IMG/VR virus record: IMGVR_UViG_3300049144_000095
Span: 160,001-224,000 of that record
Length of the DNA: 64,000 nucleotides
Source of the DNA: a virus
Lineage: Duplodnaviria; Caudoviricetes
Direction: 5' to 3' (one strand)
Positions 15,773 to 15,908 of the stretch are shown in pieces (the first letter of the stretch is position 1; every line of letters starts with the position of its first letter). The notes under the pieces were generated by a model. That model saw nothing but the letters and a program-made list of their open reading frames with translations, was not told where the DNA came from and did no database searches. Made by a program: the position numbers and the translations under genes.

Positions 15773-15840
15773 ACAGGTGTGCTGCCAATTACACCATCAC
15801 GACCGAGGCCGTGACTGGGATTCGAACCCAGACCTCCTAT
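15773..15840 (-). ncRNA. circularly permuted tRNA-like unit B (no anticodon loop)
   Basis: order: ATAGG, variable AGGT, T arm CTGGG-TTCGAAT-CCCAG, closed acceptor TCACGGCC-TC-GGTCGTGA, D arm TGGTGTAATTGGCAGCAC, CCTGT (pairs with ATAGG). Confidence 0.65.
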
Positions 15841-15842
15841 TT

Positions 15843-15908
15843 GCTGGCGTGCTTCCCTACACCACTCAGACTGTCGTCCGATCCAGGATTCGAACCTGAG
15901 CCTCCAGC
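15843..15908 (-). ncRNA. circularly permuted tRNA-like unit A (no anticodon loop)
   Basis: order: GCTGG, AGGCT, T arm CAGG-TTCGAAT-CCTG, closed acceptor TCGGAC-GACA-GTCTGA, D arm TGGTGTAGGGAAGCAC, CCAGC (pairs with GCTGG). Confidence 0.6.

What the first reader, a model, noticed from the sequence alone, without database searches (positions are those of the whole stretch)
15773..15908. Two free-standing circularly permuted, anticodon-less tRNA units in tandem inside the tRNA array
Seen in sequence: between tRNA-Phe and tRNA-Asn on the minus strand, two 66-68-nt units read T arm first, then an acceptor stem closed into a hairpin (TCGGAC-GACA-GTCTGA; TCACGGCC-TC-GGTCGTGA), then a D arm. The ends pair as an open anticodon stem (GCTGG/CCAGC; ATAGG/CCTGT). 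This is the topology of the YrlA tRNA domain but without any Ro-binding stem. Inference: tRNA-elbow mimics that cannot be charged or cut at an anticodon (decoys for tRNA-binding or tRNA-targeting defence enzymes, or spacers guiding precursor processing), or true permuted tRNA genes needing circularisation. I know of permuted tRNA genes mainly from algae and some archaea.
Basis: partly seen in the sequence, partly recalled or inferred. Interest (0 to 1): 0.85.

Follow-up and report, generated by a model that had tools for sequence, protein, structure and literature searches.

The report
Two-headed capped tRNA mimic in phage
A soil Streptomyces-type jumbo phage carries, inside its tRNA operon, two back-to-back genes for "inside-out" tRNAs with a sealed amino-acid end and no anticodon. 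They are conserved in three related phages. They look like the tRNA-shaped head of bacterial Y RNAs, but without the handle that docks those RNAs onto the Ro60 protein.

Summary
Window 15908-15843 (unit A) and 15840-15773 (unit B), minus strand, each fold into a complete cloverleaf in circularly permuted order. The order is a 5-bp open "anticodon" stem, variable loop, T arm, a 7-position acceptor stem capped by a tetraloop, U8-N9, then the D arm. There is no anticodon loop.

The cassette CG-A-AA-B recurs in three related phages that I reached through a neighbouring protein, not through RNA structure. In that 8-sequence alignment 95.8% of pair cells are paired, against 34-44% in slid controls, and 10 of 21 pairs change on both sides. 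The tertiary 15:48 pair also covaries.

The units are not tRNAs, not YrlA members and not maturable permuted tRNA genes. They have no Ro handle, no Rfam YrlA hit and different D/T stems, they lie 47 kb from rsr, and only 4 nt are available for a loop. The same phage does carry a Ro60 (TROVE) gene with three handle-bearing Y RNAs.

Best reading: a handle-less, capped, two-headed tRNA-body mimic released from the tRNA operon, acting through its tRNA elbows on an unknown tRNA-binding factor. The function is inferred, not shown.

This scan has noted similar handle-less mimics in at least four other phages. I found none described in the papers I could search.

The parts
15843..15908 (-). Unit A, 66 nt, a permuted tRNA-like module. 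Terminal stem 5' strand 15908-15904; variable loop 15903-15900; T arm 15899-15883 (T loop UUCGAAU, 15894-15888); acceptor 3' strand 15882-15876; cap GACA 15875-15872; acceptor 5' strand 15871-15865; U8 G9 15864-15863; D arm 15862-15849 (loop AGGGAA); G26 15848; terminal stem 3' strand 15847-15843.
   Evidence: (R1 78.6 bits)
15773..15840 (-). Unit B, 68 nt, a permuted tRNA-like module. Terminal stem 5' strand 15840-15836; variable loop 15835-15832; T arm 15831-15815 (T loop 15826-15820); acceptor 3' strand 15814-15808; cap CUCG 15807-15804; acceptor 5' strand 15803-15797; U8 G9 15796-15795; D arm 15794-15779 (loop AAUUGGCA); A26 15778; terminal stem 3' strand 15777-15773.
   Evidence: (R1 87.2 bits)
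15841..15842 (-). AA linker between the 3' strand of A's terminal stem and the 5' strand of B's. It is invariant in all four phages that carry the cassette.
15909..15910 (-). CG dinucleotide between the discriminator of the upstream tRNA and unit A. It is conserved although the upstream tRNA differs (Phe, Gln, Gln, Lys).
15910..15984 (-). tRNA-Phe(GAA), no encoded CCA. Its 3' processing would define the 5' end of the A-B RNA.
15696..15770 (-). tRNA-Asn(GUU). RNase P cleavage at its 5' end would define the 3' end of the A-B RNA.
62340..62745 (+). Context, not part of the cassette: three tandem Y-RNA-like genes that share a handle (..GGTTACTTC / TTGGTTAACC..). Two carry permuted tRNA-like heads (62465-62532 and 62626-62700).
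   Evidence: (Rfam YrlA 39.1 bits, E 6e-7)
63022..64000 (+). Context: the 5' part of a 536-aa Ro60/Rsr orthologue (TROVE plus vWA). It runs off the window end.

Best explanation
Units A and B are two paralogous genes for capped, anticodon-less tRNA-body mimics. They have the same permuted topology as the tRNA-like head of YrlA Y RNAs, but without the Ro60-binding handle.

What they are built from (shown by sequence and covariation): each unit keeps everything a class I tRNA needs to fold into the L shape. That means a 7+5 acceptor/T stack, a 4-bp D stem, U8, A14, G18G19, A21, the G53-C61 T-loop frame and the 15:48 Levitt pair. Each lacks a free CCA end, because a tetraloop caps the acceptor stem, and each lacks an anticodon loop, because the 5-bp stem is open.

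How they are made (inferred from established tRNA-processing knowledge): they are transcribed with the phage tRNAs. The pair would be released as one RNA of about 140 nt, 5'-CG-A-AA-B-AA-3'. RNase Z or exonuclease trimming at the CCA-less upstream tRNA would set its 5' end, and RNase P cutting at tRNA-Asn would set its 3' end.

What they do (my preferred mechanism, inferred only): the RNA presents two tRNA elbows to a tRNA-binding factor. It would act as a non-chargeable, non-cleavable-at-the-anticodon decoy or cofactor, independently of the Ro60 handle. It cannot decode.
For: Structure:
- The permuted cloverleaf is the minimum-energy fold of each unit and the RNAalifold consensus.
- ARAGORN accepts every copy after in-silico re-permutation.

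Independent orthologues:
- I found them through the neighbouring 89-aa ORF, not through RNA structure.
- The cassette is present in IMGVR_UViG_3300049141_000098, in a 253-kb contig of a Streptomyces sp. assembly, and in a Logan soil contig.

Covariation:
- 95.8% of cells are paired, against 34-44% in slid controls.
- 10 of 21 pairs change on both sides.
- 0 of 500 shuffles reach the observed covariation score.
- Window versus G001: 6 stem pairs carry substitutions and 5 keep pairing; the other 10 substitutions lie in loops or linkers.
- The tertiary Levitt pair covaries: G15:C48 in three A copies, A15:U48 in A of L369 and in all B copies (columns 54 and 11).

Caps:
- The cap sequences vary but are mostly UNCG tetraloops on a C-G closing pair (UGCG, UUCG). 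This points to selection for a closed end.

One cassette:
- The AA linker and the upstream CG are invariant, while the flanking tRNAs differ.

No handle:
- The Y-RNA handle motif occurs only at the rsr locus.

Not tied to Ro60:
- A complete 326-kb phage with a tightly embedded unit has no TROVE match.

Precedent:
- YrlA heads fold like tRNA and are handled by tRNA enzymes (PMC4201824; bioRxiv 10.1101/312249).
Against: - There is no transcript, processing or binding evidence.
- Free-energy z-scores are unremarkable (-1.2 and -2.1). The minimum-energy fold of the 140-nt dimer pairs the two near-palindromic T arms instead: -50.3 kcal/mol, against about -48.7 for two cloverleaves.
- The cassette is dispensable in evolution. 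It is absent in one close relative (L366: Gln, a 71-nt spacer, then Asn) and reduced to a T-arm-less remnant in another (L364).
- Single mismatches occur: C.A in A of G001; A.C and C.U in B of L357.
- No partner protein was identified.
- The same phage has Ro60, so a Ro60-linked role cannot be excluded.
Confidence: 0.6

Rival explanations
1. Opened, CCA-tailed two-piece tRNA mimics. As shown for M. smegmatis YrlA, RNase P would cut 5' of G1 in the cap, the 3' side would be trimmed, and CCA would be added. The products would be nicked tRNA-like molecules with a free acceptor end that could be charged or targeted.
For: Both units have the 7-position acceptor stem plus 5-bp T stem that RNase P measures. 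M. smegmatis YrlA, the only YrlA with a 7-bp stem, is cut by RNase P in vitro and carries CCA in vivo (PMC4201824; 10.1101/312249).
Against: Six of the eight caps are UNCG tetraloops on a C-G pair. These are compact and leave no single-stranded leader. Cap sequences are not conserved. The phage encodes no CCA-adding enzyme, although the host enzyme would be available. No data bear on this directly.
Confidence: 0.2
2. Ro60-linked heads. The units would work with the phage's own Rsr/Y-RNA particle, for example as spare or trans-acting effector-binding modules, despite lacking the handle.
For: The window phage and G001 both encode TROVE proteins with handle-bearing Y RNAs. One of those Y RNAs (62465-62532) shares the unusual GUGU/GCAC D stem with A and B.
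Against: There is no handle and the terminal stem is only 5 bp. The units lie 47 kb from rsr. Stand-alone units also occur in a complete phage with no TROVE match. Rfam YrlA gives no hit at E up to 10.
Confidence: 0.12
3. Non-functional debris: junction remnants of tandem or recombined tRNA genes (3' half of one, 5' half of the next) that are merely tolerated in the array.
For: Tandem identical tRNAs automatically give a perfect 'permuted unit' at their junction (L247 and L257). Junctions of ordinary tRNAs score up to about 31 bits with my model. Unit B resembles a Gly-Gln junction in Streptomyces phage LuckySocke. The cassette has been lost or truncated in some relatives.
Against: Pairing is maintained by compensatory changes in all three variable helices, and in a tertiary pair, across phages whose neighbouring protein is only 57-86% identical. 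The units diverge at about the rate of the flanking tRNAs (88% and 87%, against 77-99%), while the Lys-Phe spacer is 57% identical. The caps converge on stable tetraloops.
Confidence: 0.06
4. True circularly permuted tRNA genes matured by end-joining, as in Cyanidioschyzon or Thermofilum.
For: The gene order matches: 3' half, linker, 5' half, with the acceptor ends joined by a short linker.
Against: Only CG plus AA (4 nt) is available between the terminal-stem strands in all four phages. There is no anticodon and no bulge-helix-bulge motif. No RtcB was found in the phage, and no bacterial splicing endonuclease is known (10.1101/312249).
Confidence: 0.02

Closest known systems
YrlA (Y RNA-like A; Rfam RF02553) of bacteria and mycobacteriophages, bound by Ro60/Rsr (Chen et al. 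2014, PMC4201824; Wang et al. 2018, bioRxiv 10.1101/312249)
   Same: Circularly permuted tRNA-like domain: T arm first, then a loop-closed acceptor stem, then the D arm, with the 'anticodon' stem formed by the two ends. The tRNA tertiary-interaction nucleotides are kept. The acceptor stem has 7 positions, as in M. smegmatis YrlA.
   Different: No long terminal stem or Ro60-binding handle. No GNCGAA motif. D and T stem sequences differ from the YrlA consensus (GUGU/GCAC, not GCUC/GAGC). The units lie 47 kb from rsr inside a tRNA operon. They occur as a tandem pair with a 2-nt linker. No Rfam YrlA hit at E up to 10. The published survey discarded hits that overlapped tandem tRNAs or lay more than 4 kb from Ro60, so it could not have reported such units.
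Circularly permuted tRNA genes of Cyanidioschyzon merolae and other algae, and of Thermofilum pendens (Soma 2007; Maruyama 2010; Chan 2011, as cited in 10.1101/312249)
   Same: The 3' half is encoded upstream of the 5' half, and the acceptor ends are joined by a short linker.
   Different: Those precursors carry the anticodon-loop residues and a splicing motif, and they mature into decoding tRNAs. These units have no anticodon residues and sit in a bacterial virus.
Handle-less permuted tRNA mimics, and the DUF7873-linked two-headed tRNA-mimic RNA, noted earlier in this scan (unpublished AI notes e1-5344296, e1-5361100, e1-5347618, e1-5369646, e1-2703945)
   Same: Anticodon-less, capped, permuted tRNA bodies in phage tRNA clusters. 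In the DUF7873 class, two heads sit in one RNA.
   Different: The DUF7873 RNA is 360-400 nt and sits next to its protein gene. This cassette is 140 nt and is bounded on both sides by tRNAs. Whether a DUF7873 gene is present was not tested. The present phage additionally has a classical Ro60/Y-RNA locus.
b7a-tRNA and other Ro-independent tRNA-like RNAs predicted in RNA-repair loci (Burroughs and Aravind 2016, as summarised in 10.1101/312249)
   Same: The idea that a tRNA-like RNA can serve a protein partner other than Ro60.
   Different: b7a-tRNA has conventional order and lies beside Band-7/RtcB genes. No RtcB was found here.
mascRNA/menRNA tRNA-like elements (Rfam RF01684)
   Same: A tRNA-like fold that is recognised and released by tRNA-processing enzymes and does not decode.
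   Different: Eukaryotic and of conventional order. The Rfam match across the A/B junction is only 23.7 bits against a gathering score of 42.5, and it has mismatched acceptor pairs.

Membership tests
YrlA (RF02553) | Permuted tRNA-like domain (T arm, closed acceptor-like stem, D arm) | tested here: met
YrlA (RF02553) | Long terminal stem carrying the Ro60-binding site or handle | tested here: not met
   The terminal stem is 5 bp and the neighbouring genes begin 2 nt away on each side. This phage's handle motif occurs only at 62389-62728.
YrlA (RF02553) | Encoded next to (within about 4 kb of) a Ro60/Rsr gene | tested here: not met
   The TROVE ORF starts at window 63022 and the units lie at 15773-15908, so they are 47 kb apart.
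YrlA (RF02553) | Rfam covariance-model score at or above gathering (69 bits) | tested here: not met
   No YrlA match at E up to 10 in 15500-17400. The rsr-linked RNA at 62608-62718 scores 39.1 bits.
YrlA (RF02553) | Conserved D/T stem sequences and the GNCGAA motif | tested here: not met
   The D stem is GUGU/GCAC in all 8 copies, whereas the consensus is GCUC/GAGC. CGAA occurs only inside the T loop, preceded by UU.
tRNA (RF00005) | Conventional 5'-to-3' order with an open acceptor stem and a 7-nt anticodon loop | tested here: not met
   ARAGORN and Rfam (gathering) find nothing. The best partial match is 21.7 bits, without an acceptor stem. Cross pairing is 3-4 of 7.
Circularly permuted tRNA genes (algal/archaeal type) | 3' half upstream of 5' half, joined at the acceptor ends | tested here: met
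Circularly permuted tRNA genes (algal/archaeal type) | Termini that rebuild an anticodon loop after excision and ligation | tested here: not met
   Only 2+2 nt lie between neighbouring genes and the terminal stems, in four phages.
Circularly permuted tRNA genes (algal/archaeal type) | Splicing endonuclease and ligase available | tested here: inconclusive
   No RtcB in the phage. The host genome was not examined.
Two-piece (permuted) tmRNA | tRNA-like domain plus tag reading frame | tested here: not met
   ARAGORN finds no tmRNA. The only Rfam tmRNA_permuted hit is 14.5 bits and lies elsewhere. The units are 66-68 nt.
DUF7873-linked two-headed tRNA-mimic RNA (this scan's notes) | One structured RNA of about 360-400 nt containing both heads | tested here: not met
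   The cassette is 140 nt and abuts tRNA-Phe and tRNA-Asn.
DUF7873-linked two-headed tRNA-mimic RNA (this scan's notes) | Adjacent DUF7873 protein gene | not tested
The neighbouring ORFs have no Pfam hit.

The most novel reading that the evidence does not exclude
The A-B cassette is one member of an undescribed, widespread class of phage RNAs. These are handle-less, capped tRNA bodies, here fused tail-to-tail into a two-headed molecule, that are made from tRNA operons and act independently of Ro60. They would act by occupying or recruiting a factor that recognises the tRNA elbow: a processing or modification enzyme, or a tRNA-directed host defence protein. They would also be living examples of the 'dimeric tRNA transcript' stage proposed for the origin of Y RNAs.
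Probability: 0.35. Interest if true: 0.75.

Novelty: new variant of a known kind. Interest (0 to 1): 0.62.

Why it matters
The effector-binding head of bacterial Y RNAs is known to mimic tRNA, but what it binds and why is still open. Here the head occurs without the Ro60 handle. It is duplicated, capped with stable tetraloops, embedded in a tRNA operon, and maintained by compensatory evolution, all in a phage that also keeps classical handle-bearing Y RNAs. That separates the job of the head from Ro60 docking.

It also gives a compact 140-nt bait for finding the elusive partner. A relative sits in a Streptomyces sp. genome assembly, so it may exist in a cultured strain and be experimentally tractable.

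It fits the published model that Y RNAs arose from dimeric tRNA transcripts. The published YrlA survey could not see such units by design, because it excluded hits in tandem tRNA genes and hits more than 4 kb from Ro60.

For annotation, these units are missed by ARAGORN and by Rfam, and they leave spurious antisense ORFs.

Tried and rejected
- Expression: the look-up of sequencing runs listed no RNA holder. The blank says nothing either way.
- Read laying on four soil DNA runs gave contigs identical over the units, so no new variation was gained.
- The search for related loci with the 154-aa ORF inside the array found no relative.
- blastn of A+B against 50,697 cultured-phage records gave one weak hit, an ordinary Gly-Gln tRNA junction.
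- Rfam gave no family at gathering for these units or for 18 other loci with similar units.
- Promoter and terminator consensus scans of 14500-17700 found nothing useful.
- RtcB and the CCA-adding enzyme were not found in the phage.
- T4-type RNA ligase 1 and the PNKP HAD domain were not found either, but their control genomes did not ring, so this is uninformative.
- TROVE could not be searched in the L357, L369 or L366 records because they are not held.
- DUF7873 could not be searched by name.
- My covariance model R1 scores junctions of ordinary adjacent tRNAs up to about 31 bits, so I ignored the low-scoring hits in G003.
- I considered and dropped the idea of a conventional tRNA spanning A and B, a permuted tmRNA, an attP-type tRNA fragment, and coding potential. 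The only ORFs are 59-aa ones antisense to the tRNAs.
- Literature searches for stand-alone permuted tRNA mimics or decoys in phages found only the YrlA papers. The 2020 Annual Review on Ro60 and Y RNAs is not held.

Full report
**What is there**

The window is bases 160001-224000 of a 251,159-bp IMG/VR virus record. It has high G+C, and its nearest tRNA matches are in Streptomyces phages.

On the minus strand, ARAGORN and Rfam find tRNA-Pro, an odd 'tRNA-Gly', tRNA-Lys, tRNA-Phe (15984-15910) and tRNA-Asn (15770-15696). The 139 nt between Phe and Asn are called by neither tool. Read directly, they are:
- CG
- unit A (15908-15843)
- AA
- unit B (15840-15773)
- AA

Each unit runs in this order:
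- a 5-nt strand
- a 4-nt variable loop
- a canonical T arm (5 bp, loop UUCGAAU)
- seven acceptor 3'-strand positions
- a 4-nt cap
- seven acceptor 5'-strand positions
- U8 and G9
- a 4-bp D stem, with a D loop that holds A14, R15, GG and A21
- one purine
- a 5-nt strand that pairs with the first one

RNAfold returns exactly this permuted cloverleaf for each unit alone.

When I put the 5' half in front of the 3' half and added an artificial 7-nt loop, ARAGORN called A, B, their G001 orthologues (A', B') and one rsr-linked head of this phage (Y3) as tRNAs. So nothing of a tRNA is missing except the anticodon loop and a free acceptor end.

**Is it more than chance?**

A purpose-written scanner (T arm, then acceptor hairpin, D arm and terminal stem) scores A and B at 23 and 24.
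- In about 1 Mb of phage tRNA regions there were 18 hits at 23 or more.
- Shuffled or reversed copies gave 0.
- Random junctions of real tRNAs reached 23 in 0.45% of 20,000 trials.

None of the high-scoring real hits overlapped an ARAGORN tRNA.

Acceptor pairing between A's 5' strand and B's 3' strand is 3-4 of 7, against 6-7 of 7 within each unit, and this holds in all four phages. Rfam's tRNA model gives only a partial 21.7-bit match without an acceptor stem.

Contigs from three other soil-metagenome studies are identical over the units.

**Conservation**

I found relatives through the 89-aa ORF downstream of tRNA-Asn, independently of RNA structure. The cassette CG-A-AA-B is present in:
- IMGVR_UViG_3300049141_000098, between Gln and Asn
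- a 253-kb contig of a Streptomyces sp. assembly, between Gln and Asn
- a more distant Logan soil contig, directly after tRNA-Lys

It is absent in one close relative (L366: Gln, a 71-nt spacer, then Asn). In another (L364) it is reduced to a remnant without a T arm.

On the 8-sequence alignment:
- 95.8% of pair cells are standard pairs, against 34-44% when partners are slid.
- 10 of 21 pairs show changes on both sides.
- No shuffle of 500 reaches the observed covariation score.
- RNAalifold predicts the same four helices unaided.

Between the window and G001, 17 substitutions fall as follows:
- 10 lie in unpaired positions.
- 7 fall across 6 stem pairs.
- 5 of those pairs stay paired, one through a double change.

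The units are 88% and 87% identical between the two phages. That is within the range of the flanking tRNAs (77-99%) and well above the 57% of the Lys-Phe spacer.

The tertiary Levitt pair covaries. It is G15:C48 in three A copies, and A15:U48 in the fourth A copy and in all B copies. The caps differ in sequence, but six of eight are UNCG tetraloops on a C-G pair.

**Relation to Y RNAs**

The same phage encodes a 536-aa TROVE plus vWA protein (Ro60/Rsr) that starts at window 63022. Directly upstream of it lie three tandem RNAs that share a handle. Two of them have permuted tRNA-like heads. Rfam's YrlA model hits one at 39.1 bits (E 6e-7, below gathering).

Units A and B lie 47 kb away. They lack the handle, which occurs only at the rsr locus. 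They give no YrlA hit at E up to 10. Their D stem is GUGU/GCAC, not the YrlA consensus. So they share YrlA's topology but fail every other membership criterion.

The literature gives the frame:
- YrlA heads fold like tRNA and are substrates of tRNA enzymes.
- The M. smegmatis YrlA, which has a 7-bp stem, is cut by RNase P and receives CCA (PMC4201824).
- Most YrlAs are thought to stay closed, 'resembling circularly permuted tRNAs'.
- The family is proposed to have arisen from dimeric tRNA transcripts (10.1101/312249).
- The published survey discarded hits that overlapped tandem tRNAs or lay more than 4 kb from Ro60.

**Beyond this lineage**

Free-standing units also turned up in unrelated viral contigs. 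Many of them are flanked by long stems and so look Y-RNA-like.

Three are wedged between tRNAs with 0-7 nt to spare on at least one side:
- L082 (0 nt up, 3 nt down)
- L122 (3 nt up, 7 nt down)
- L041 (3 nt up, 56 nt down)

The 326-kb record that holds L082 is rated complete and has no TROVE match.

None of these units reaches any Rfam gathering score.

Earlier notes of this scan describe handle-less mimics in at least four other phages, and a DUF7873-linked two-headed RNA. I treated these as leads only. I re-examined the related phage G001 myself.

**How it most likely works**

Shown:
- the fold is under selection
- the pair is inherited as one cassette
- the ends are capped
- there is no anticodon and no handle

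Inferred from standard tRNA processing:
- The upstream tRNA has no encoded CCA, so RNase Z or exonucleases would cut after its discriminator.
- RNase P would cut at the 5' end of tRNA-Asn.
- Together these would free a 5'-CG-A-AA-B-AA-3' RNA of about 140 nt, with two L-shaped bodies joined through their anticodon-stem ends.

Inferred, with lower confidence:
- What remains exposed is the tRNA elbow and the acceptor/T stack.
- The RNA would therefore act on a factor that reads those features, as a decoy or as a cofactor, without being chargeable or cleavable at an anticodon.

Whether the caps are opened by RNase P, as in M. smegmatis YrlA, is open. The UNCG caps argue against it.

**Caveats**
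- There are no expression data.
- Thermodynamic z-scores are ordinary, and the 140-nt minimum-energy fold prefers a hairpin between the two T arms.
- The cassette has been lost in some relatives.
- DUF7873 was not tested.

**Verdict**

The element is real and conserved. It is a new variant of a known kind: the YrlA-type permuted tRNA mimic, here handle-less, tandem, and resident in a tRNA operon. Its function is unknown, and my preferred mechanism is an inference.

Noticed in passing
window 16618-16704 (-): The gene that ARAGORN calls tRNA-Gly(ccc) (Rfam tRNA 46 bits) has no 7-nt anticodon loop. Its anticodon arm is replaced by an irregular arm of about 30 nt capped by a GCAA tetraloop. It is therefore a conventional-order, anticodon-less tRNA-like gene in the same array.
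   Followed up: partly
window ~14745-14865 (-): A class II tRNA-Tyr(GUA)-like gene with an unusually long variable arm of about 50 nt. ARAGORN and Rfam (gathering) both miss it. A homologue lies at L124 2740-2860 in the related phage.
   Followed up: partly
window 62340-62745 (+) and 63022-64000 (+): A Ro60/Rsr (TROVE plus vWA) gene preceded by three tandem Y-RNA-like genes. They share a handle and carry three different inserts. A terminator lies at about 62747-62775.
   Followed up: partly
window 24820-24904 (+): ARAGORN calls an 85-nt tRNA-Glu(ctc) with the anticodon at position 41, which is an unusual geometry. Rfam (gathering) does not call it.
   Followed up: no
L124 365-444; L364 1066-1145; L369 1559-1638: Three related phages share an 80-nt gene that ARAGORN reports as 'tRNA-???' with a four-base anticodon (ggtg). 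L363 has one with ccgg. These could be tRNAs with 8-nt anticodon loops, or miscalled class II tRNAs.
   Followed up: no
L124 210-355 (related phage G001) and L002 ~1030-1265 (Streptomyces phage Satis): tRNA-like genes with large inserts (about 70 nt and about 190 nt) between the D arm and the T arm. They look intron-like or like expansions of the anticodon arm.
   Followed up: no
L011, L018, L025, L035, L089, L098, L108 (unrelated viral contigs): Permuted tRNA-like units flanked by a closing helix and a shared 5' motif ...ACAGCAA. This looks like a different, handle-bearing Y-RNA-like family in low-GC phages.
   Followed up: no
L013 9598-9666 and 9724-9790: Two permuted units 58 nt apart, about 500 nt downstream of a 248-aa ORF with no Pfam hit, in a 424-kb viral contig. 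This may be the two-headed RNA class noted earlier in the scan.
   Followed up: partly
L358, L362, L359 (contigs with homologues of the 89-aa ORF but no adjacent tRNA array): In these relatives the same neighbourhood carries tRNA-repair genes instead: T4-type RNA ligase 1 with PNKP, or Hen1.
   Followed up: no
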